A stretch of 64,000 nt of DNA from a bacterium (lineage in GTDB: Bacteria; Patescibacteriota; Minisyncoccia; Phycocordibacterales; SBAW01): assembly GCA_037139975.1 (NCBI GenBank), contig JBAXFJ010000002.1:24373-88372 (forward strand), in the 5' to 3' direction. Within the stretch, counting starts at the first letter, position 1; every line of letters starts with the position of its first letter. A model generated the notes under the pieces. It worked only from the letters and a program-made list of their open reading frames with translations. It ran no database searches and was not told the DNA's origin. Made by a program: the position numbers and the translations under genes. Shown one piece after another: positions 2,503 through 29,239 of this stretch.

Positions 2503-3777
2503 ATGTTGGATATAAAGTTCATCCGGGAGAATATCGACGCGGTCAAAGCGGGCGCCAAGAAAAAGCACGTCGAAGTCGACCTCGACCGGCTCCTCGTGGT
2601 TGATGAAAAACGCCGCGCACTTTTGGGCGAGGTCGAGGCTATGCGCGCACAGCAAAACGAAGTCTCAAATAAAATCACCATCGCGACGCCTGAAGCACGC
2701 CAAACCTTTATCGACGAGATGCGTGTGGTCAAAGAAAAACTCCAAGGCAAAGAAAAAGAGCTCGAAGAGGTAACAAAAGAATGGCAGCTCTTGATGGTGC
2801 AGGTGCCAAACATTCCCGATCTCTCGGTCTCGGATGGCGACTCTGACGCCGACAATGTCGAGGTCAAAAAGTGGGGAACCATTCCTGAATTTGCTTTCAC
2901 TCCCAAGAGCCACGTCGAGCTGATGCAGAATTTGGACATGGCTGACTTCGAGCGCGGGACCAAAGCGGCGGGCTTCCGCGGCTATTTCCTCAAAGGCGAT
3001 GGCGCGCTCCTCAACTTCGCTGTATGGCAGTTCGTGCTCAATCACTTTGTCGAGAAGGGCGGCTTCACCCCGATGATCGTGCCCAGTCTCGTCAAGCGCG
3101 TGGCCTTTCTGGGCACCGGCTACTTGCCCCAAGGCGAAGAAGATTTGTATAAAACCCAAGACGAAGACTTTTTGGCTGGCACGGGCGAGGTAGCCACCAT
3201 GTCCTACTATATGAACGAAGTCATCGATGCGGCGCAGTTCCCTATAAAGTTCTTAGCCTTTTCACCCTGCTTCCGCCGCGAGGCAGGCAGTCATGGCAAA
3301 GACACCAAAGGTATCATGCGCGTGCACGAGTTCTTCAAATTCGAGCAAGTCGTCCTCTGCGAAGCGTCTCACGAAACCTCGGTGAAGTATCATGAAGAGC
3401 TCACCCAAAACGCCCAAGACCTCCTCGAACGCCTAAACATTCCCTACCACGTGGTGGTCAACTGCGGTGGCGACTTAGGATTGGGGCAGGTCAAGAAATA
3501 TGACATCGAGTCGTGGGTGCCGTCGGAAGGGAAGTATCGCGAAACGCATTCGTCGTCATACTTCCACGACTTCCAAACCCGCCGGCTCAACATCCGCTAC
3601 CGCGATGGGGACGGCACCTTGCAGTACGCACACTCTTTAAACAACACAGCGCTCGCCACCCCGCGCGTCCTCATCTCAATCATCGAAAACAACCAAAACG
3701 AAGATGGTTCCATAACCATTCCCGAGGTTCTCAGACCATATATGGGGGGAAGGGAGAGGATAGAGAAGAGAGTCTAG
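2503..3777 (+). CDS. serS: seryl-tRNA synthetase
   Basis: Start MLDIKFIRENIDAV aligns with the SerRS N-terminal coiled-coil. Class II motifs FSPCFRREAGSHGKDTKGIMRVHEF and LNNTALATPRVLISIIENNQ. Confidence 0.9.
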   Translation: MLDIKFIRENIDAVKAGAKKKHVEVDLDRLLVVDEKRRALLGEVEAMRAQQNEVSNKITIATPEARQTFIDEMRVVKEKLQGKEKELEEVTKEWQLLMVQVPNIPDLSVSDGDSDADNVEVKKWGTIPEFAFTPKSHVELMQNLDMADFERGTKAAGFRGYFLKGDGALLNFAVWQFVLNHFVEKGGFTPMIVPSLVKRVAFLGTGYLPQGEEDLYKTQDEDFLAGTGEVATMSYYMNEVIDAAQFPIKFLAFSPCFRREAGSHGKDTKGIMRVHEFFKFEQVVLCEASHETSVKYHEELTQNAQDLLERLNIPYHVVVNCGGDLGLGQVKKYDIESWVPSEGKYRETHSSSYFHDFQTRRLNIRYRDGDGTLQYAHSLNNTALATPRVLISIIENNQNEDGSITIPEVLRPYMGGRERIEKRV

Positions 3778-4064
3778 ATCAAAAGTGGGAGAAATATCCG
3801 CTTTAGGGCGCAATGTGAAGCAGAAAAATATATTTTTTGCAAAGTTTGAATATTTTTTAGCACTTTTTGATACTTTTTTACACAAAGCAGTTGATTTTTG
3901 TATAAAAAGTTCTCGAGTGTCTTATACACAGGCAAAAGCCCCCCACTTCTGGGTAGAAACAAGTACAAAGGAGTACAATAAAGTCGTATCCCTAGCAAGC
4001 TGGGTACCTTTTTCTAGATCATTGAAAAATTGAAAATGTTCACCGCAACCTCGTGAGAGGGCGG

Positions 4065-4082
4065 GGTGTACGCGCGTACACC
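4065..4082. repeat. perfect 18-bp palindrome GGTGTACGCGCGTACACC in the serS-tRNA intergenic region
   Basis: Exact self-complementary sequence, seen directly in the sequence. Confidence 0.7.
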
Positions 4083-4273
4083 ATTATTAGCGATAACCAT
4101 ATTAATAGTATGGAATATAACTACCGTAGTAGCGTCACTGGGAGGTACGTGAAGGAAGGCTATGCCGACCGTCACCCAAACACCACCGAACGTGAACGAC
4201 GCCAGTAATTTGGTAGCCGCCTACCCAAACAGGGTAGCGGTGAACATTTTCAAAGCCCAACTGTTTTAAGAGT

Positions 4274-4394
4274 TGGGCGCAGGAAGTAACAAAAGCTTTC
4301 CGGCCTCCGTAGTTCAATGGATAGAATACCGCGATTCGTACCGGGTGATTCAGGTCCGATTCCTGGCGGGGGCACCAATTACTTCCTGCGCCCA
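4274..4394 (+). repeat. perfect 15-16-bp inverted repeat (TGGGCGCAGGAAGTAA / TTACTTCCTGCGCCCA) clasping the tRNA-like element
   Basis: 4274-4289 and 4379-4394 are exact reverse complements. They lie 13 nt upstream and 1 nt downstream of the tRNA-like sequence. Confidence 0.8.
4303..4377 (+). tRNA. tRNA-like sequence with degenerate anticodon stem (possible pseudo-tRNA or unusual tRNA; anticodon ambiguous, TCG if loop ATTCGTA)
   Basis: Acceptor GCCTCCG/CGGGGGC pairs 7/7 with one GU. D-arm GTTC-AATGGATA-GAAT has the conserved GG. T-arm TCAGG-TCCGATT-CCTGG. Discriminator A plus encoded CCA. The anticodon stem CCGCG/CCGGG has two mismatches, and the T-loop reads TCC rather than TTC. Confidence 0.4.
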
Positions 4395-4745
4395 GTTCTC
4401 AAATTTAAAAGTGCAAGAACACAAAAAATCCTCCAACTACTTAGAGGGCTAATTTTCTCGTTAAATCATTTAATAACATTACTTTGACAATAATTCTCGA
4501 CCTTTTCTATGTGTGCCGTGCTGTTGTTTAGGTTCGACACTACTTTTGCTCCTCCTGCTAATATTACTTCAGGCCGGCTAATTTCACAACGTGACATAAG
4601 GTGGATAACTAAAGATGAAGCGTTCAATAATAAGGATTTCTTATCGTATAAGTGTGATCTAGTGTCACCTTTTGCATCACATCGGTTGCTTCCACTATTG
4701 GTGAGAGCTTGCGAAAGTTTTTACAAACAAAGTAAAAACCATAAA

Positions 4746-4979
4746 ATGTCCCACCCATTTGCAGCGATGTTTGAGAAGGCGTTGAGGAAGAGTAGGGGCG
4801 AAGCCCAGGGCCAGGAAAATTTGGTATTGGAAGAGGCGCGGGGGTTGCACAAAAAGGGGTACAGCCCACAAGAGATTTATGAGGTGCTGGCCAAGTTGCA
4901 CCGCGAGCTACTCGCCCCCGCAGACCTCGAGTTGGTGGGCGAAGCGCTCGACGAATTCGCGACGTATATAGGGGATTAG
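4746..4979 (+). CDS. hypothetical small protein (77 aa)
   Basis: GC-rich 3' part of ORF 4509..4979 (MSHPFAAMFEKALRKS...EALDEFATYIGD). The upstream part is AT-rich and probably non-coding. Confidence 0.3.
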   Translation: MSHPFAAMFEKALRKSRGEAQGQENLVLEEARGLHKKGYSPQEIYEVLAKLHRELLAPADLELVGEALDEFATYIGD

Positions 4980-5266
4980 TGTATGGGGTAGGGGCAAAGG
5001 CATCGTATACTGTTGCTATGGAAAATGAATCAAATGAATCGTCCGAGATGGCGCGGGTGATAGAGCAGCTCGAGCTGGCAAACCAGCAGTTGGCCAAACA
5101 AAATTCGTTTAAGCGGATGTTTGCGGTCGGCATTGTCTATGGCATAGGCTTTTTTGTTGGTTCGGCGATTTTGGCCACCATCGCGCTGGGCATCATTGGC
5201 CCCTATGTTGGCAAAATCGGCTGGGTGCGCCAGTCATTCCAAACGGGCTCGGAGCTCAAGCGGTAA
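4979..5266 (+). CDS. hypothetical small membrane protein (coiled-coil + 1 TM)
   Basis: ORF with TM segment FAVGIVYGIGFFVGSAILATIALGIIGPYVG. The start overlaps the previous stop. Confidence 0.35.
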   Translation: MYGVGAKASYTVAMENESNESSEMARVIEQLELANQQLAKQNSFKRMFAVGIVYGIGFFVGSAILATIALGIIGPYVGKIGWVRQSFQTGSELKR

Positions 5267-5402
5267 TAGTAAAAAGAATTATTATTGAGAAGACTCGCTA
5301 CTATTTTGCAGAAGGTGGTGTCAGCTACACTCCTATTTTAAATTAAAAAATGCTTGTTTTACTGGGTCAAGGCATAATTTGCCTTATGTTTATTGGTTTT
5401 TT

Positions 5403-5433
5403 TTGCCACATACACCAAAAAGTATGGTATAGT
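5403..5433 (+). promoter_or_regulatory. candidate sigma70-type promoter (TTGCCA ... TGgTATAGT extended -10) upstream of the rlpA-like gene
   Basis: TTGCCA at 5403-5408 and TGgTATAGT at 5425-5433, ~80 nt upstream of the CDS start. Confidence 0.3.
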
Positions 5434-5513
5434 ACTGGTAGAGGAGCTTGAAAACGCCCACAGCCTTTGTGCGGGCACCTTCAAACTCCTCCCCACTGTA
5501 ATGGAGTAAGGTA

Positions 5514-5960
5514 TTGTTACGTTTTCTGTGTGTGTTGGCGTGCGTGCTGTGCAGCCCTGTTTTGGGTGCTGCGTGTGCGGCAGATGCGTCAAAAAAGTCA
5601 GTCTATACCACGGCAACGTGGTATGACTATAACGAAGGGCCGAAGCGGAGGATGGCAAACGGTGAAGTATTCGACAAAACCAAGCCGACGATTGCCCACG
5701 CCACTCTTCCACTCAACACACGAGCTTGGCTTGTAAATGTGAATGATCCAACCAAATCTATCGAGGTTGTGGTCGCCGACCGTCAAGCACGGTGGGTCCG
5801 GCAAGGTTGGCCCAACCGCGCAGTTGATGCAAATCTGCACGTCGCTCGGGCGCTTGGTTTTGGTCCTGGCGCAAACAAAGACTTGCTTCGTATTCGGGTC
5901 GAAGTGCTTTCTCTTCCTGTGGGGCACGCGCCCCCGAGCCGACGCAAAAGCAGCGGCTGA
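5514..5960 (+). CDS. RlpA-like double-psi beta-barrel (DPBB) lipoprotein/secreted protein
   Basis: N-terminal signal peptide. TATWYDYNEG...ANGEVFD...TIAHATLPLNTRAWLVNVNDPTKSIEVVVADRQ matches the RlpA DPBB pattern (ASWYG...TA.GE.fd...AAH..LP..t.v.V.N..NG.sv.vrI.DRGP). Confidence 0.6.
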   Translation: MLRFLCVLACVLCSPVLGAACAADASKKSVYTTATWYDYNEGPKRRMANGEVFDKTKPTIAHATLPLNTRAWLVNVNDPTKSIEVVVADRQARWVRQGWPNRAVDANLHVARALGFGPGANKDLLRIRVEVLSLPVGHAPPSRRKSSG

Positions 5961-5988
5961 CGGTATGTAGTGTTCTTTCCGCCCACAT

Positions 5989-6028
5989 GGCGAGCTCCCT
6001 TCCGTTGGGCTCGCCATTTTTCTTTTTT
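5989..6028 (+). terminator. rho-independent terminator after the rlpA-like gene
   Basis: GGCGAGC-13 nt loop-GCTCGCC followed by ATTTTTCTTTTTT. Confidence 0.7.
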
Positions 6029-17559: not shown

Positions 17560-17772
17560 AAGGGAAATTATGACTATCAAACCACGGTAGCATCAGTGAT
17601 TTCTGTTGCTCGTCGGGCTAAGGCAATATTCGAAAGTTCTGAAGCGCACGAAAAACGAGCATTTCTCAACTATTTACTTCAGAACCCGACTGTATCGGGC
17701 AAAACCCTTGTATTTACAATGCGAAAACCCTTTGATGCAGTACTCGAAATAGCTAACTGTCCTCTCGGGCTG
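17560..17772 (+). pseudogene. remnant of a large-serine-recombinase 3' end (copy A1, ~70 codons)
   Basis: Encodes ...AKAIFESSEAHEKRAFLNYLLQNPTVSGKTLVFTMRKPFDAVLEIANCPLG, matching the C-terminus of the truncated recombinase at 19.5-19.7 kb. 17633-17772 is ~97% identical to 19603-19740 at DNA level. No upstream recombinase body. Confidence 0.6.
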
Positions 17773-18457: not shown

Positions 18458-18734
18458 TGGGTGACTCCTTGTCTGAGGAAGTAGAAGTAACTGCTGTCTC
18501 TTGTAAGATAATACAATGTAATGTGATAAATAGCAAGTAGACGTGATGTTTCAAGCAATGAAATGAGTGTGTTTGATTCGATATGTTCTACTTCTGCACG
18601 GACAGTTGGCAATCAGATGTTTCCTTGCCCGTATCGGTAGTTACCCTAAACCAAGTTCATCTCTTTCTGTTGCCAACTGCAGTTGCATTTCAAGTTCATC
18701 TATTACGATTTGTATAGACTCATGGACGGGATTT

Positions 18735-19796
18735 GTGAGGATTGGTTATAGGAATATTGTACTGGATGCAGAGAAGCGATTGCGAAAGGATATAGTTCTT
18801 GACCCTGAGCGGGCGCACCTTATTGAACGTCTCTTTCAGTTGTACGCCTCTGGTAATTATTCGGTTACGACCGCTCTTGCTGAAATTACACGTCTCGGCC
18901 TCCGTAGCCACACTGGCAATCCTCTTGCTCGTAGCAATATTGAGACAATTCTAAAAGACCCTTTTTATTATGGAATGGCTCGCTCAAAAAAATACGGTAA
19001 CTACCCGCACCGCTATCCGCACATCATTACCCGAGAGCTGTTCGAGCAATGCCAAGAGGTATTTCGTGGCCGCCACAAATCGACCTCCAAGCCAGTATCC
19101 GACCTGTTTATGTTTAAAGGGCTTCTGCATTGTGCTAACTGCGGTTGCCTTATGACCCCCGAGCGTAAAAAGGGCTATCTTATCTACTATTCCTGCACGA
19201 ATGCCAGAGGAGTATGCAAGCGGTTATATATACCCGAACAAACCCTCCTAAAGCCCGTACAGAGCGTATTTGAGGCGTTTGAGGCAATGCCCAAGGAAGT
19301 TGAGGAGCGGCTCTTGAGCGAGCTTAGAGCTTCAAACGAGGGCGAAGTTGAGTACCACAAGAAAGAGCTTGTTCGCATCCGCGCCGAGTACGACCGGACG
19401 CAGACCCGCGCTAACTCGCTGATGGACTTGCTCATCGACAAGAGTATTACTAAGGATGATTATGACAAAAAACTGCAAGAGCTAAAAGATAAACAATACC
19501 GTTTGGACATCGAAGCCGAAGAGCATACTCGCGCCGACCATGACTACAAACTCACTATCTCACAAGTGTTTTCTCTTTCTCGAAGGATGGGCGAAATTTT
19601 TAAAAGTTCTGAGGTGCACGAAAAACGAGCATTTCTCAACTATTTACTTCAGAACCCGACTGTATCGGGCAAAACCCTTGTATTTACAATGCGAAAACCC
19701 TTTGATGCAGTACTCGAAATAGCTAACTGTCCTCTCGGGCTGTGTCTCCTGAACAAAATCCGAACTTTTTTCCAAAACAATCCAACTGCTGACTAA
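18735..19796 (+). pseudogene. large serine recombinase lacking its N-terminal catalytic resolvase domain (copy A2)
   Basis: From GYRNIVLDAEKRLRKD onward it aligns with residues ~150-500 of the intact recombinase at 27690..29198 (recombinase domain, Cys zinc ribbon CANCGC...C..C, coiled-coil). The first ~55 codons of ORF 18567..19796 are unrelated junk with stops upstream. The catalytic-Ser region is absent. Confidence 0.6.
19603..19740 (+). repeat. direct repeat of recombinase 3' end (A2), ~97% identical to 17633-17772 (A1)
   Basis: Direct comparison. Both copies end ...cctctcgggctg, and the flanks differ after that. Confidence 0.8.
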
Positions 19797-20011
19797 TCGC
19801 ACGCGCGGAGCGCGTGGTGACTTGAAACTGCCTCGTACGCTCCGATTGAGTGGTGAAGCGAACCAATGCGCCTCGGACACGCTCGCGGACTCGCGTGTGC
19901 AAAAACCAAAAAATTTCCTTGCATTTTCCTCGCGTCTCCTCCCCCCACCCCTCCACCGCGAAGCGGAAAAAGAAATGGAAAGGAAATTTTTGGTTTTGCT
20001 TCGCCGTTTCA
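19741..20011 (+). repeat. element X, copy 1: ~270-bp GC-rich sequence, perfect inverted repeat of 27204-27472
   Basis: The reverse complement of 27204-27472 matches 19741-20011 essentially base for base (tgtctcctgaacaaaatccgaac ... ggttttgcttcgccgtttca). It contains several hairpins (CACGCGC-GGA-GCGCGTG and ACACGC...GCGTGT) and a C-rich tract (cctccccccacccctccacc). Confidence 0.85.
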
Positions 20012-27203: not shown

Positions 27204-27472
27204 TGAAACGGCGAAGCAAAACCAAAAATTTCCTTTCCATTTCTTTTTCCGCTTCGCGGTGGAGGGGTGGGGGGAGGAGACGCGAGGAAAATGCAAGGAA
27301 ATTTTTTGGTTTTTGCACACGCGAGTCCGCGAGCGTGTCCGAGGCGCATTGGTTCGCTTCACCACTCAATCGGAGCGTACGAGGCAGTTTCAAGTCACCA
27401 CGCGCTCCGCGCGTGCGATTAGTCAGCAGTTGGATTGTTTTGGAAAAAAGTTCGGATTTTGTTCAGGAGACA
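27204..27472 (-). repeat. element X, copy 2 (inverted relative to 19741-20011)
   Basis: See copy 1. The outer end joins a recombinase 3' end through the same ...ggctg|tgtctcctg junction. Confidence 0.85.
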
Positions 27473-27475
27473 CAG

Positions 27476-27606
27476 CCAAAATTCAGAATTCGTTTTTTCG
27501 CCAAAATTCGGAGCGTCGCAAAGCGACGCGACGGGGGTTTCCGCCAGAATTCGCCAAGGGTTTTTGAAATCCAAAAGAAGCGAGCGGGACGCGAGGCGGG
27601 GGTTTA
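27476..27606 (-). repeat. recombinase 3'-end repeat B' (perfect 131-bp inverted copy of 29040-29170)
   Basis: The reverse complement is identical to the last 131 bp of the intact recombinase gene (encoding NPRLASRSLLLDFKNPWRILAETPVASLCDAPNFGEKTNSEFWL). Here it continues in frame into X, giving the tail ...CLLNKIRTFFQNNPTAD. Confidence 0.85.
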
Positions 27607-27689
27607 TGATGAGTACATCATTCAAAACTTCGTTTTGCGAGCCAATCTGGAAGCGAATAACTATCAATATTTAACATAAACTTTTTTCT

Positions 27690-29198
27690 ATGAACAAATT
27701 CTTTCTTTACGCCAGAAAATCTACCGACGAGCCCGATCGTCAGATTTTGAGTATTGAATCGCAGATTGACGAGTTGAAAGAATTTGCAGAGCGAGAGCAG
27801 TTAGAGATTGTTGAAACTTTTGTTGAATCACAGACCGCTAAAGAGCCGGGCAGACCTATTTTCAACAATATGCTCTCGCTCATAGAAAAAGGCAAAGCGT
27901 CGGGAATTTTAGCTTGGCATCCCGATAGATTGGCAAGAAATAGTATTGATGGTGGAAAGATAATCTATCTGTGTGACCTCGGTAAAATTAAAGAGCTAAA
28001 ATTCCCGACATTTTGGTTCGACGCTACGCCACAAGGTAAGTTTATGTTAAATATTGCTTTTGGGCAGAGCAAATACTATGTAGATAATCTTTCAGAGAAT
28101 GTGAAGCGTGGACTTCGCCAAAAAGTAAGACGAGGCGAACAAAGTGGTCAAGCACCGACGGGATATTTGAATGACAAGTTGAACAAGAAAATTGTTCCCG
28201 ACATGGAGAGATTTCGCCTCGTCAAAAAAATGTTCGAAGTCTACGCTACTGGAAATTATTCTCTGAAAGATACGAGGAATTTGCTCGCCCAAAAGGGCTT
28301 GGTGTCTAAAAATGGTAAAGTTCTCACTATTTCAAACACGCAAATGATATTGAGAAATCCTTTTTACTATGGAATGTTTTTATTTAACAAAGAACTTTAC
28401 CAAGGAAAGCACGAGCCAGCGATTTCAAAGAAACTTTTTGATAAATGCGCGGAAGTATCGGCGAGGAATGCTCACCCGATGAAGCGAGGAATTAACAAGC
28501 ATGTTTTTCGCGGAATATTTTTGTGTGAAGAATGCGGTTGTGGCATAACCAGCGAAGTGCAAAAAGGTCATACCTATTATCGTTGTACCAAAAAGAAAGG
28601 TGTCTGCACACAAAAATATATCCGCGAAGAATTCCTCGCCGAACAAGCTAATGACATTATCAAAAAAGTTTCTTTGTCGTCAGAGTGGAAAGAATTCATG
28701 CTCGCTGAACTCGACAAGGAACAAGCGAGCAGTTTCCACTCTGACGCCCTTTTCGTTCAAAATCTGAAAAATCAAATCAAAAGTGTTGAGGAGACGCTAG
28801 ACAGGCTTCTTGACGCTCATTTGGACAGCGCCATTACGAGCGAGGAGTATATCGGGAAGAAGCAAAAACTCCTCAACCAAAAGATTGATTTTTCAGAGAA
28901 ATTGAATGATTTTGAACGAAAAGGTAATCGCTGGCTCGAACTTTCTAAACAATTCATTTTAGACAGTAACCAAGCCATAATTATCGCTTCCGAAGAAAAT
29001 CTCGAAGCCAAAAGAGATTTTCTTAAAAAGATTGGCTCGAACCCCCGCCTCGCGTCCCGCTCGCTTCTTTTGGATTTCAAAAACCCTTGGCGAATTCTGG
29101 CGGAAACCCCCGTCGCGTCGCTTTGCGACGCTCCGAATTTTGGCGAAAAAACGAATTCTGAATTTTGGCTGGGATACAGGGATTCGAACCCCGATTAA
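27690..29198 (+). CDS. large serine recombinase (integrase), full length
   Basis: 502 aa. N-terminal resolvase catalytic domain (YARKSTDEPDRQ...SIESQ), recombinase domain, Cys zinc ribbon (CEECGC...C..C) and a C-terminal coiled-coil. The last 11 codons overlap tRNA-Gln on the opposite strand. Confidence 0.85.
   Translation: MNKFFLYARKSTDEPDRQILSIESQIDELKEFAEREQLEIVETFVESQTAKEPGRPIFNNMLSLIEKGKASGILAWHPDRLARNSIDGGKIIYLCDLGKIKELKFPTFWFDATPQGKFMLNIAFGQSKYYVDNLSENVKRGLRQKVRRGEQSGQAPTGYLNDKLNKKIVPDMERFRLVKKMFEVYATGNYSLKDTRNLLAQKGLVSKNGKVLTISNTQMILRNPFYYGMFLFNKELYQGKHEPAISKKLFDKCAEVSARNAHPMKRGINKHVFRGIFLCEECGCGITSEVQKGHTYYRCTKKKGVCTQKYIREEFLAEQANDIIKKVSLSSEWKEFMLAELDKEQASSFHSDALFVQNLKNQIKSVEETLDRLLDAHLDSAITSEEYIGKKQKLLNQKIDFSEKLNDFERKGNRWLELSKQFILDSNQAIIIASEENLEAKRDFLKKIGSNPRLASRSLLLDFKNPWRILAETPVASLCDAPNFGEKTNSEFWLGYRDSNPD
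29040..29170 (+). repeat. recombinase 3'-end repeat B (partner of 27476-27606)
   Basis: See B'. The copy ends ...ttttggctg, where the last bases are the complement of the tRNA-Gln CCA, discriminator and acceptor end. Confidence 0.85.
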
Positions 29199-29239
29199 AG
29201 GCTTCAAAGGCCTCTGTCCTACCATTAGACGATATCCCA
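29166..29239 (-). tRNA. tRNA-Gln (anticodon UUG), 74 nt with encoded CCA
   Basis: Reverse complement TGGGATATCGTCTAATGGTAGGACAGAGGCCTTTGAAGCCTTTAATCGGGGTTCGAATCCCTGTATCCCAGCCA. U1:A72 acceptor pair typical of tRNA-Gln, 7-bp acceptor stem, D-loop GG, anticodon loop CUUUGAA, T-loop TTCGAAT. Confidence 0.85.

What the first reader, a model, noticed from the sequence alone, without database searches (positions are those of the whole stretch)
4274..4394. tRNA-like element with broken anticodon stem, clasped by a perfect 15-16-bp inverted repeat
The sequence 4303-4377 has a good acceptor stem, D-arm and T-arm, a discriminator and an encoded CCA. Its anticodon stem has two mismatches and its T-loop reads TCC. 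Its 5' leader and 3' trailer form a perfect 16-bp helix (TGGGCGCAGGAAGTAA / TTACTTCCTGCGCCCA).

Possibilities:
- (a) an unusual functional tRNA whose precursor uses a leader-trailer processing stem;
- (b) a decayed tRNA copy marking an old integration site;
- (c) a small MITE-like element carrying a tRNA-like cargo.

The ~270-bp upstream spacer also holds a perfect 18-bp palindrome (4065-4082) and several hairpins, which suggests a structured RNA or regulatory region.
Basis: seen in the sequence. Interest (0 to 1): 0.5.

Follow-up and report, generated by a model that had tools for sequence, protein, structure and literature searches.

The report
Hairpin-clasped variant tRNA-Arg gene
A small candidate-phyla-radiation (CPR) bacterium carries an extra arginine tRNA gene with an unusual anticodon arm, held between two long complementary flanks; it looks like a working, horizontally acquired tRNA and not a dead remnant, and a sister copy sits in a phage.

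Summary
Window 4303-4377(+) is called tRNA-Arg(UCG) by ARAGORN and Rfam (40.5 bits). It is flanked by a 25-nt inverted repeat (perfect 16-nt core), the strongest leader-trailer pairing among 271 tRNAs from related (CPR) loci.

- **T-loop:** the "TCC" reading is not a defect. About 70 canonical tRNA-Arg genes in metagenomes share it.
- **Anticodon arm:** it is non-canonical, but a phage-contig copy (L140) shares it. All 7 stem differences between the two copies preserve pairing (P about 2e-4 under random change). The fold that fits both has purine 29 bulged and an 8-nt loop, AUUCGUAN.
- **Location:** the gene lies in a strain-specific, roughly 1.2-kb orphan insertion after serS. Beside it is a second, unidentified 224-nt unit clasped by its own 21-bp helix.
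- **Clasp:** similar leader-trailer helices occur in about 4% of these tRNA genes and covary among tRNA-Gln orthologs.

Best reading: an accessory, horizontally acquired tRNA-Arg variant whose precursor is clamped by a processing helix, with RNase III-type cleavage inferred. A MITE and a decayed relic are poorly supported. A DNA-level origin of the repeat remains a live rival. Decoding function is unknown; a four-base or frameshifting reading is possible but unproven.

The parts
4303..4377 (+). tRNA-Arg-derived gene. It has a 7-bp acceptor stem, a D-arm with GGAUA (A20), a T-arm with loop UCCGAUU (C55), discriminator A at 4374 and encoded CCA. The anticodon arm is at 4329-4345 and UCG at 4336-4338.
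   Evidence: ARAGORN; Rfam RF00005 at 40.5 bits; 86% identical to the L140 copy with all stem changes preserving pairing.
4329..4345 (+). Non-canonical anticodon arm CCGCG-AUUCGUA-CCGGG. The best fold shared with L140 is 27-43, 28-42, G29 (4331) bulged, 30-41, 31-40 and an 8-nt loop AUUCGUAC (4334-4341).
   Evidence: Canonical register: 50% of cells paired. Bulge plus 8-nt loop: 100% paired in both copies. It is the ViennaRNA minimum-energy fold for the window arm. ARAGORN calls a 4-base anticodon in L140.
4265..4289 (+). 5' arm of the leader-trailer clasp (perfect core 4274-4289).
   Evidence: the repeat finder I1; duplex -35.8 kcal/mol, z = -7.
4290..4302 (+). 13-nt unpaired leader spacer (CAAAAGCUUUCCG) between the clasp and tRNA position +1. 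It leaves the RNase P cleavage site single-stranded.
   Evidence: Sequence; minimum-energy fold; helix offsets.
4379..4403 (+). 3' arm of the clasp. It starts 1 nt after the encoded CCA.
4255..4278 (+). Small hairpin GCCCAAC-N10-GUUGGGC. Its 3' strand overlaps the clasp's 5' arm, giving a possible alternative or co-transcriptional pairing.
   Evidence: the repeat finder I4.
4030..4253 (.). Second clasped unit. A 21-nt inverted repeat (4030-4050 / 4233-4253) encloses 182 nt with several hairpins, including the 18-nt palindrome at 4065-4082. Identity and strand are unknown.
   Evidence: z = -6 on both strands; no Rfam match at E<=10; no homolog in any held locus, phage record or IMG/VR.
3991..4013 (+). 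Weak terminator-like hairpin plus U-tract after serS. No sigma-70-like promoter was found between serS and the tRNA, so read-through co-transcription is inferred.
3778..4978 (+). Strain-specific orphan segment between serS (2503-3777) and a conserved 95-aa membrane ORF (4979-5266). It is absent from, or replaced in, the closest relatives.
   Evidence: blastn against serS loci; ORF maps of L003 and L004; the 156-aa ORF 4509-4979 has no homologs and no family hit.

Best explanation
Window 4303-4377 is a genuine member of a CPR-typical tRNA-Arg lineage, defined by the D-arm GUUCAAUGGAUAGAAU and the T-loop UCCGAUU. It is an accessory, horizontally acquired UCG copy that sits in a strain-specific ~1.2-kb insertion downstream of serS in an Adlerbacteria-like genome. 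Its anticodon arm is derived: a 4-bp stem with a bulged purine 29 and an expanded loop A-U-U-C-G-U-A-N. A copy on a phage contig shares this arm, and it has been kept by purifying selection, so the RNA is, or very recently was, functional.

Shown: the repeat, the selection on the fold, the insertion context, and the recurrence and covariation of such helices elsewhere.

Inferred: the gene has no recognisable promoter of its own and is probably transcribed by read-through from serS. The 25-bp leader-trailer helix clamps the ends of the precursor but leaves 13 nt of leader and the ACCA end unpaired. RNase P can therefore cut at +1, while a double-strand-specific endonuclease (RNase III type) cuts the clasp. 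That frees the tRNA, and likewise the neighbouring 224-nt clasped RNA, from the mRNA, and exonucleases then trim back to CCA.

The decoding role is the least certain step. The most likely role is a specialised tRNA-Arg for CGA/CGG whose altered anticodon arm changes how nucleases or the ribosome handle it.
For: - Two detectors call a tRNA.
- Arg identity features A20, C35, G36 and A73 are readable in the sequence. The body is near-identical to canonical tRNA-Arg genes that score 57-59 bits.
- C55 is shared by about 70 unique canonical tRNA-Arg genes.
- Window and L140 differ at 10 positions. The 7 in stems all preserve pairing, including the double changes 7-66 (G-C to A-U) and 28-42 (C-G to U-A). 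P is about 2e-4 under random substitution.
- Both copies lose the same ~19 bits in Rfam (40.5 and 40.2).
- The clasp is rank 1 of 271.
- Leader-trailer helices of 13 or more pairs occur in about 9 of the 271 tRNAs (Gln, Ser, His, Arg). In orthologous tRNA-Gln genes of L030, L057 and L024, 5 of the 14 clasp pairs change on both sides, 96.8% of cells pair, and 0 of 500 shuffles reach the observed values.
- No promoter-like site lies between serS and the tRNA.
- Pairing of the leader with the 3' RCCA inhibits RNase P (PMC9433436); the window's geometry avoids exactly that.
- CPR bacteria lack tRNA-Arg(ACG) and depend on UCG/CCG isoacceptors (PMC8629427). CGA is used at 5.1 per 1000 codons here.
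- The sequence is identical in an independent assembly.
Against: - There are no expression, end-mapping or charging data.
- Only two members carry the aberrant arm, and the 8-nt-loop register was chosen after seeing both.
- The arm is thermodynamically weak in every register, and for L140 a triloop hairpin is slightly more stable.
- U at position 37 (7-nt register) and a bulged stem are unusual for a decoding tRNA.
- No ortholog of this locus carries the element, so covariation cannot be tested for this particular clasp. The covariation evidence comes from other tRNA genes.
- G.U against A.C counts in clasp helices (6 against 3) give no significant strand signal, so maintenance of the repeat at the DNA level is not excluded.
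- No RNase III gene lies within the 64-kb window, although most of the genome is unseen.
- Whether a canonical tRNA-Arg(UCG) exists elsewhere in this genome is unknown.
Confidence: 0.45

Rival explanations
1. The inverted repeat is a DNA-level feature with no RNA-processing role. Either it is a by-product of template switching seeded at the acceptor-stem inverted repeat (quasi-palindrome extension, so that the leader becomes the reverse complement of the trailer), or it marks the boundaries or recombination structure of a small mobile tRNA cassette. The tRNA may still be functional.
For: - Most other strong clasps are seamless extensions of the acceptor stem with the discriminator paired, as template switching would produce.
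- Young examples are perfect: L030 22/22 and L096 26/27.
- Four of the strongest clasps lie in inserted DNA: the window, L140, and clasped tRNAs nested inside disrupted cognate tRNA genes in L096 and L024. In both nested cases the right border of the insertion coincides with the end of the clasp.
- There is no significant sense-strand G.U bias.
Against: - The arms occur once in the window and nowhere else in about 1.3 Mb of related loci or in IMG/VR.
- There is no target-site duplication.
- In the window and in L140 the inserted DNA is much larger than the clasped unit.
- The window's clasp is offset 13 nt from the acceptor stem, so it is not a simple acceptor-seeded extension.
- Compensatory and wobble-preserving changes between the L030 and L024 clasps fit selection on pairing, although arm-to-arm correction could mimic this.
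Confidence: 0.25
2. The element is a non-functional relic in this genome. A phage- or island-derived tRNA-Arg variant was brought in with the 1.2-kb insertion and is no longer used; the anticodon arm defects make it useless for decoding.
For: - It lies in orphan, apparently non-coding inserted DNA with no promoter.
- The Rfam score is ~19 bits below canonical relatives.
- The anticodon arm is weak.
- Relatives manage without a tRNA at this locus.
Against: - All stem differences from L140 preserve pairing.
- The arm's peculiarities are shared, not random.
- The acceptor, D and T arms, the encoded CCA and the tertiary-pair positions are intact.
- The clasp is nearly perfect.
Confidence: 0.15
3. 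The element is a tRNA mimic with a non-decoding job, for example a decoy or nuclease-resistant substitute that counters tRNA-Arg-targeting anticodon nucleases, an aminoacyl donor outside translation, or a regulatory RNA. It keeps ArgRS identity elements but is free to alter the anticodon arm.
For: - The sister copy is phage-borne, next to a DUF5675/phrog_1501 gene and lysis genes.
- Phage tRNAs are proposed to escape host anticodon nucleases, including colicin D, through anticodon-loop changes (PMC10264068).
- The changes are concentrated in the anticodon arm only.
Against: - No nuclease, transferase or defence gene is adjacent in the window.
- Related phages lack the tRNA.
- The argument rests wholly on analogy.
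Confidence: 0.1
4. The inverted repeats flank an invertible DNA segment (an inverton) that switches the tRNA between sense and antisense relative to serS read-through.
For: - A perfect 16-bp core repeat flanks a 139-bp unit in an intergenic region.
- The genome carries serine recombinases and long perfect inverted repeats elsewhere.
Against: - No recombinase is adjacent.
- Both assemblies show the same orientation.
- The arms in L140 are imperfect, and in the tRNA-Gln orthologs they covary with G.U pairs.
- The arms have no internal dyad symmetry of the kind typical of invertase sites.
Confidence: 0.03

Closest known systems
Leader-trailer processing helices of bacterial rRNA operons (RNase III substrates; PMC10250234 listed)
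   Same: Long-range pairing of sequences 5' and 3' of a stable RNA forms a helix of 20 bp or more that brackets the mature RNA inside a longer transcript. Two adjacent units are each bracketed, as 16S and 23S are.
   Different: Here the bracketed RNA is a single 75-nt tRNA, plus an unknown 182-nt RNA, downstream of a protein gene. No cleavage has been shown. In rRNA operons the embedded tRNAs are not individually clasped.
Expanded-anticodon-loop tRNAs: +1 frameshift suppressors (SufB2, SufJ; PMC7803779 and PMC4238358, listed) and yeast mitochondrial tRNA-Thr(UAG) with an 8-nt loop (PMC3113583, PMC7609411)
   Same: The best common fold gives an 8-nt anticodon loop with U33 and a purine 3' of a four-base UCGU stretch.
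   Different: The extra loop nucleotide is offset by a bulged purine in a 4-bp stem, so total arm length is unchanged. The loop size is inferred from two sequences and weak energetics. No decoding data exist. The element is natural, occurs in a bacterium and a phage, and derives from tRNA-Arg.
Phage-encoded tRNAs with anticodon-loop changes proposed to evade host anticodon nucleases (PMC10264068)
   Same: An accessory tRNA carried by a phage (L140) and by a variable chromosomal segment, with changes confined to the anticodon arm.
   Different: The published cases are base substitutions in 7-nt loops. No cognate nuclease is known here, and a flanking clasp is not part of that model.
Archaeal split or permuted tRNAs and bulge-helix-bulge (BHB) leader-trailer helices (from my own knowledge)
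   Same: Leader and trailer pair into a long helix next to the tRNA body.
   Different: There is no bulge-helix-bulge motif (the clasp is continuous with one A.C mismatch), the gene is collinear and complete, and the host is a bacterium that should lack the splicing endonuclease.
MITEs / REPIN-like palindromic elements (from my own knowledge)
   Same: A short unit (139 bp) is bounded by 25-nt inverted repeats.
   Different: It is single-copy, has no target-site duplication, and its cargo is a selected tRNA.
Group I intron-containing tRNA genes of Patescibacteria (PMC13011429)
   Same: The same phylum, structured insertions of about 200 nt associated with tRNA genes, and tRNA genes that annotation tools mis-handle.
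   Different: The tRNA here is uninterrupted. The 224-nt unit lies outside it and has no group I intron match even at E<=10.

Membership tests
tRNA (Rfam RF00005) | Score at or above the gathering threshold, with acceptor, D and T arms | tested here: met
   40.5 bits against 29; ARAGORN call.
tRNA (Rfam RF00005) | 5-bp anticodon stem with a 7-nt loop, U33 and purine 37 | tested here: not met
   G29.G41 and C30.C40 mismatches and U37 in the 7-nt register. Rfam skips the arm.
tRNA (Rfam RF00005) | T-loop U54-U55(Psi)-C56 | tested here: not met
   The loop reads U-C-C. The same C55 is found in about 70 unique canonical tRNA-Arg genes scoring 57-59 bits, so it is a lineage trait.
tRNA-Arg isoacceptor | Identity elements A20, C35, G/U36 and A/G73 (E. 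coli rules, from my own knowledge; also used in PMC8629427) | tested here: met
   All are readable in the sequence; the body aligns with canonical tRNA-Arg genes.
tRNA-Arg isoacceptor | Aminoacylation by ArgRS and decoding of CGA/CGG | not testable with these tools
   Needs charging and translation assays.
Expanded-anticodon-loop (four-base / +1 frameshift-type) tRNA | 8-nt anticodon loop closed by a regular stem | tested here: inconclusive
   The register with R29 bulged and an 8-nt loop pairs 100% in both copies and is the minimum-energy fold for the window. For L140 a triloop is 0.7 kcal/mol better, and n = 2.
Expanded-anticodon-loop (four-base / +1 frameshift-type) tRNA | Quadruplet decoding or frameshift suppression | not testable with these tools
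   Needs a reporter assay.
RNase III leader-trailer processing stem | A duplex of about 20 bp or more formed by sequences flanking the mature RNA | tested here: met
   25 positions with 24 pairs, -35.8 kcal/mol.
RNase III leader-trailer processing stem | Helix conserved by compensatory change | tested here: inconclusive
   No ortholog of this locus carries the element. Met for the analogous tRNA-Gln helices. The L140 clasp has an unrelated sequence but the same architecture.
RNase III leader-trailer processing stem | Staggered endonucleolytic cleavage in the helix; co-transcription with the upstream gene | not testable with these tools
   Needs RNA end-mapping.
MITE | Terminal inverted repeats | tested here: met
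   25-nt inverted repeat.
MITE | Multiple copies in the genome or in relatives | tested here: not met
   One copy in 64 kb; none in about 1.3 Mb of related loci or in IMG/VR. The rest of the genome was not available.
MITE | Target-site duplication | tested here: not met
   The flanks CCAACTGT and TTTAAAAG share only an AT-rich pentamer that overlaps the repeat.
Group I intron (in or near a tRNA, Patescibacteria type) | Match to the group I intron model; insertion in the anticodon loop | tested here: not met
   No Intron_gpI hit at E<=10 in 3800-4700; the tRNA is uninterrupted.
Archaeal-type BHB / split / permuted tRNA | Bulge-helix-bulge motif in the leader-trailer helix; permuted or split halves | tested here: not met
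   The helix is continuous with a single A.C mismatch, and the gene is collinear.

The most novel reading that the evidence does not exclude
The window and L140 elements are members of a natural family of tRNA-Arg-derived tRNAs with an expanded, four-base (UCGU) anticodon loop. They read a quadruplet or promote +1 frameshifting (or otherwise re-programme CGA/ACG decoding), and they travel between phages and CPR bacteria as self-contained, hairpin-clasped cassettes that can be expressed from any transcript. In some genomes such cassettes even replace the resident cognate tRNA gene (nested copies in L096 and L024).
Probability: 0.1. Interest if true: 0.85.

Novelty: new variant of a known kind. 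Interest (0 to 1): 0.5.

Why it matters
- **Annotation:** some tRNA genes that look defective to annotation tools in CPR bacteria may be selected variants. The C55 T-loop is a lineage norm, and the bulged stem with an enlarged loop is a conserved design.
- **tRNA maturation:** a minority of CPR tRNA genes are bracketed by long leader-trailer helices. That implies a tRNA maturation route with a double-strand cleavage step, which is not part of the textbook bacterial pathway.
- **Gene transfer:** the phage link and the insertion contexts suggest that tRNA genes move as small portable units in these reduced genomes.
- **Decoding:** if the enlarged loop alters decoding, this would be a rare natural bacterial or phage case of an expanded-anticodon tRNA.

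Tried and rejected
- **Phage origin of the window:** no blastn match to 50,697 phage records for 3000-6000. Window 4020-4410 matched only generic tRNA-Arg similarity.
- **Known RNA family for 4030-4253:** nothing in Rfam at E<=10, including 6S, tmRNA, T-box, Y RNA, ribozymes and group I introns. nhmmer and blastn against all held loci found nothing, and the palindrome is absent from IMG/VR.
- **More members in viral contigs:** five pattern scans gave 0 hits or chance hits in coding sequence.
- **Neighbouring ORF as an anchor:** the 156-aa ORF has no homologs and no Pfam or PHROG hit.
- **Phage relatives of L140:** four contigs reached through the DUF5675 protein have no tRNA at that site.
- **Clasping as a universal trait of this tRNA-Arg family:** rejected; only 3 of 73 have it. 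The window's own tRNA-Gln is only weakly paired.
- **An 'outer' split tRNA around the window's clasp, as in L096 and L024:** no tRNA halves flank it.
- **Acceptor-like heptamers inside the clasp arms (GCGCCCA / TGGGCGC):** judged post hoc and in the wrong order for a nested gene.
- **The hairpin GCCCAAC...GTTGGGC as an integron attC site:** it resembles the core consensus (recalled from my own knowledge, not tested here) but spans only 24 nt, too short for an attC site; rejected.
- **The inverted-repeat cluster at 27.6-29 kb as the same phenomenon:** it lies in a real serine-recombinase gene within a separate mobile island.
Full report
**What is there.** The window is a chromosomal segment of a CPR/Patescibacteria bacterium. 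The SerS encoded at 2503-3777 is 83% identical to that of Candidatus Adlerbacteria MAGs. The same DNA occurs in ENA assembly ERZ4222710 (a 173.8-kb contig) and, independently assembled, in Logan SRR12676966 with 100% identity over 3.6 kb that include the finding. The gene order is dprA(-), serS(+), about 1.2 kb without recognisable genes, a conserved 95-aa membrane ORF, a DPBB protein, dus and dnaX.

ARAGORN calls tRNA-Arg(tcg) at 4303-4377. Rfam's tRNA model gives 40.5 bits against 66.1 for the window's tRNA-Gln, and treats the anticodon arm as an unaligned gap. The inverted repeat is real. The perfect 16-nt arms lie at 4274-4289 / 4379-4394, and the repeat extends to 25 nt at 4265-4289 / 4379-4403 with 22 Watson-Crick pairs, two G.U and one A.C. 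Thirteen unpaired nucleotides separate the 5' arm from tRNA position +1. The 3' arm starts one nucleotide after the encoded CCA.

**A second clasped unit.** Immediately upstream, 4030-4253 is bracketed by its own 21-nt, 95% complementary repeat. The 391-nt stretch holding both units folds with z = -8.05, and the upstream unit alone with z = -6 on either strand. The 577 nt downstream are unstructured (z = -0.1). No Rfam family matches it even at E<=10. It has no homolog in about 1.3 Mb of related loci, in 50,697 phage records or in IMG/VR. Its identity remains unknown.

**The T-loop is not a defect.** One metagenome scan for the D-arm GTTCAATGGATAGAAT followed by the T-arm GGTCCGATTCC returned 86 loci. 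All are tRNA-Arg genes, with anticodons GCG, CCU, UCU or UCG, regular anticodon arms and varied acceptor stems. Examples score 57-59 bits in Rfam. C55 is therefore a recurrent trait of a tRNA-Arg lineage in CPR-type genomes. Among tRNA-Arg genes in the same loci that the pattern did not select, 2 of 15 also have it, and other isotypes mostly read UUC.

**The anticodon arm is unusual but conserved.** Only one of the 86 loci, L140, shares the window's arm (window CCGCG-AUUCGUA-CCGGG, L140 CUACG-AUUCGUA-ACGAG). ARAGORN labels L140 tRNA-??? with a four-base anticodon tcgt, and Rfam gives it 40.2 bits, the same ~19-bit deficit as the window.

The two tRNAs differ at 10 of 72 positions. Seven differences are in stems, and every one preserves pairing. 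These include the double changes 7-66 (G-C to A-U) and 28-42 (C-G to U-A). The other three fall at position 29, at loop position 39 and in the variable loop. With 7 random substitutions in paired positions, all pairs stay intact with probability about 2e-4. This argues against decay.

In the canonical register the anticodon helix is only 50% paired in the two copies. A register with 27-43, 28-42, purine 29 bulged, 30-41, 31-40 and an 8-nt loop A-U-U-C-G-U-A-N pairs fully in both, and it is ViennaRNA's minimum-energy fold for the window. Canonical tRNA-Arg(UCG) genes in these loci have the loop C-U-U-C-G-A/G-A. Relative to them, the variant looks like an inserted U after G36, offset by one nucleotide fewer in the 3' stem strand.

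There are caveats. The arm is weak in every register: -2.9 kcal/mol at best for the window, and for L140 a small triloop hairpin is 0.7 kcal/mol better. The register was chosen after seeing both sequences, and n = 2.

**Context: accessory and inserted.** None of 60 serS neighbourhoods from relatives has a tRNA after serS. Homology to the window stops at the end of serS and resumes inside the 95-aa ORF. L008 has that ORF directly after serS, and L003 and L004 carry unrelated genes there. The 156-aa ORF in the inserted segment has no homolog among 5.8 billion proteins and no family hit.

L140 is a phage-type contig. Its neighbour is a DUF5675/phrog_1501 protein, and close homologs lie on contigs with SSB, endonuclease VII, helicase and lysozyme genes. 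Those relatives lack any tRNA, and L140 has an insertion of about 400 nt at that spot which contains the clasped tRNA. The variant tRNA is thus accessory in both settings and is probably exchanged horizontally.

CPR bacteria lack tRNA-Arg(ACG) and use UCG/CCG isoacceptors for CGA/CGG (PMC8629427). CGA is used at 5.1 per 1000 codons in the window's genes. I could not determine whether a canonical UCG copy exists elsewhere in this genome.

**The clasp in comparative view.** Among 73 unique members of the tRNA-Arg family, only the window (z = -7.0), L096 (-4.6) and L140 (-2.6) have notable leader-trailer duplexes. Among 271 unique tRNAs of all isotypes in the held CPR-type loci, the window ranks first by energy (median -10.2, 1st percentile -27.3) and by helix length (24 pairs; median 6, 99th percentile 15.6). 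L140 ranks fourth by length.

A tail of about nine genes (Gln, Ser, His, Arg) has helices of 13 or more pairs. Most of these stack directly on the acceptor stem with the discriminator paired. For the syntenic tRNA-Gln of L030, L057 and L024, the 14-pair clasp shows five pairs changed on both sides and further G.U substitutions. 96.8% of cells pair, and none of 500 shuffles reaches the observed values. Pairing between leader and trailer is therefore maintained in at least some CPR tRNA genes.

The window's version differs in that it leaves the leader next to +1 and the ACCA end unpaired. Those are the parts whose pairing is known to hinder RNase P (PMC9433436).

**Mechanism proposed.** No sigma-70-like promoter is found between serS and the tRNA, and only a weak terminator-like hairpin follows serS. 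I infer the following steps; none of them is shown:
- Read-through transcription from serS.
- Formation of the two clasps.
- Cleavage of each by a double-strand-specific endonuclease of the RNase III type, as for rRNA leader-trailer helices.
- RNase P cleavage at +1.
- Exonucleolytic trimming back to CCA.

**A live rival: DNA-level origin.** Two loci show a clasped, complete tRNA nested inside the remnants of the resident cognate gene. In L096, a tRNA-Arg(CCU) is split at 32/44, and its D-loop carries a separate 38-nt hairpin insertion. In L024, a tRNA-Gln survives as its first 12 and last ~25 nt, with a trailer homologous to those of unclasped orthologs. Together with the window and L140, four of the strongest clasps lie in inserted DNA.

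Seamless, sometimes perfect, extension of the acceptor-stem repeat (L030 22/22, L096 26/27) is what template switching at a quasi-palindrome would create. Continued arm-to-arm correction could mimic covariation, and the G.U against A.C count (6 against 3) does not decide the strand. Against a transposon-like element, the arms are single-copy everywhere I could look, there is no target duplication, and in the window and L140 the inserted DNA is much larger than the clasped unit.

**Other readings considered.**
- **Relic:** see the selection argument above.
- **Non-decoding mimic or nuclease-resistant substitute:** this rests on analogy with the proposal for phage tRNAs (PMC10264068). No supporting neighbour gene is present.
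- **Invertible switch:** no adjacent recombinase, and both assemblies show the same orientation.
- **Group I intron:** the length is right for Patescibacteria tRNA introns (PMC13011429), but there is no model match and the tRNA is uninterrupted.
- **Archaeal-type bulge-helix-bulge:** no such motif is present.

**Verdict.** The best reading is an accessory, horizontally acquired tRNA-Arg(UCG) variant under selection, with a leader-trailer processing helix (confidence about 0.45). A DNA-level origin or role of the repeat is the main rival (0.25). It is a new variant of known kinds: leader-trailer processing stems and expanded-loop tRNAs. Interest is moderate. It would rise sharply if the enlarged anticodon loop were shown to change decoding, or if clasped tRNA cassettes proved to be mobile.

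Noticed in passing
window 4030-4253: A 224-nt unit clasped by a 21-nt inverted repeat, directly upstream of the clasped tRNA. It has several hairpins and an 18-nt perfect palindrome, and folds with z = -6 on both strands. It has no Rfam match and no homolog anywhere searched. It may be a companion stable RNA released by the same processing route, but its identity and strand are unknown.
   Followed up: partly
L096 2150-2400 (minus strand) and L024 6382-6666: tRNA nested in tRNA. A complete, clasped tRNA (Arg-CCU in L096, Gln-UUG in L024, the latter with its own promoter-like TGGTATAAT box) sits between the 5' and 3' remnants of the resident cognate tRNA gene. In L096 the outer D-loop also carries a 38-nt hairpin insertion. 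This suggests that clasped tRNA cassettes insert into, or replace, cognate genes.
   Followed up: partly
L030 9849-9948, L057 10079-10180, L139 796-916 and 4934-5045, L089/L132 tRNA-His: A minority (about 4%) of CPR-type tRNA genes have 12-22-bp leader-trailer helices that continue the acceptor stem without a break, so the discriminator is paired. They occur at orthologous genes and show compensatory changes. I did not find this described in the papers searched.
   Followed up: partly
loci L083-L168 (86 metagenome contigs): A widespread tRNA-Arg lineage (anticodons GCG, CCU, UCU, UCG) has C at position 55 of the T-loop (UCCGAUU) in place of the near-universal U/Psi55. It is otherwise canonical and scores 57-59 bits in Rfam.
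   Followed up: partly
window 19738-20011 and 27204-27477: A perfect 274-nt inverted repeat flanks a low-GC (0.38-0.44) 7.2-kb segment that encodes a type I restriction-modification system (hsdR, hsdS, hsdM). It may be an invertible or mobile island, and a truncated serine recombinase gene (18567-19796) lies just outside.
   Followed up: partly
window 27473-27604 and 29040-29171; also 27665-28056, 27893-28015, 28458-28642, 28748-28924: A perfect 132-nt inverted repeat brackets a large serine recombinase gene (27690-29198) that abuts tRNA-Gln (29166-29239, minus strand). Several further near-perfect inverted repeats lie inside the coding sequence (the fold of 27660-28060 has z = -7.2). They could be recombination sites or nested invertible segments, and are unexplained.
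   Followed up: no
window 17570-17772 and 19540-19742: A 204-nt direct repeat (88% identical) lies on the left side of the island, overlapping the 3' end of the truncated recombinase gene.
   Followed up: no
L122 and L104/L115 (downstream of tRNA-Arg): Long, perfect hairpins (about 24 bp) whose 5' strand includes the tRNA's own 3' acceptor end and CCA or trailer. This is a different way of sequestering the tRNA 3' end, and could be a terminator or a processing signal.
   Followed up: no
window 4255-4278: The hairpin GCCCAAC-N10-GTTGGGC overlaps the 5' arm of the tRNA clasp, so the two structures are mutually exclusive. Its ends resemble the integron attC core consensus (recalled from my own knowledge), but the element is far too short to be an attC site.
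   Followed up: partly
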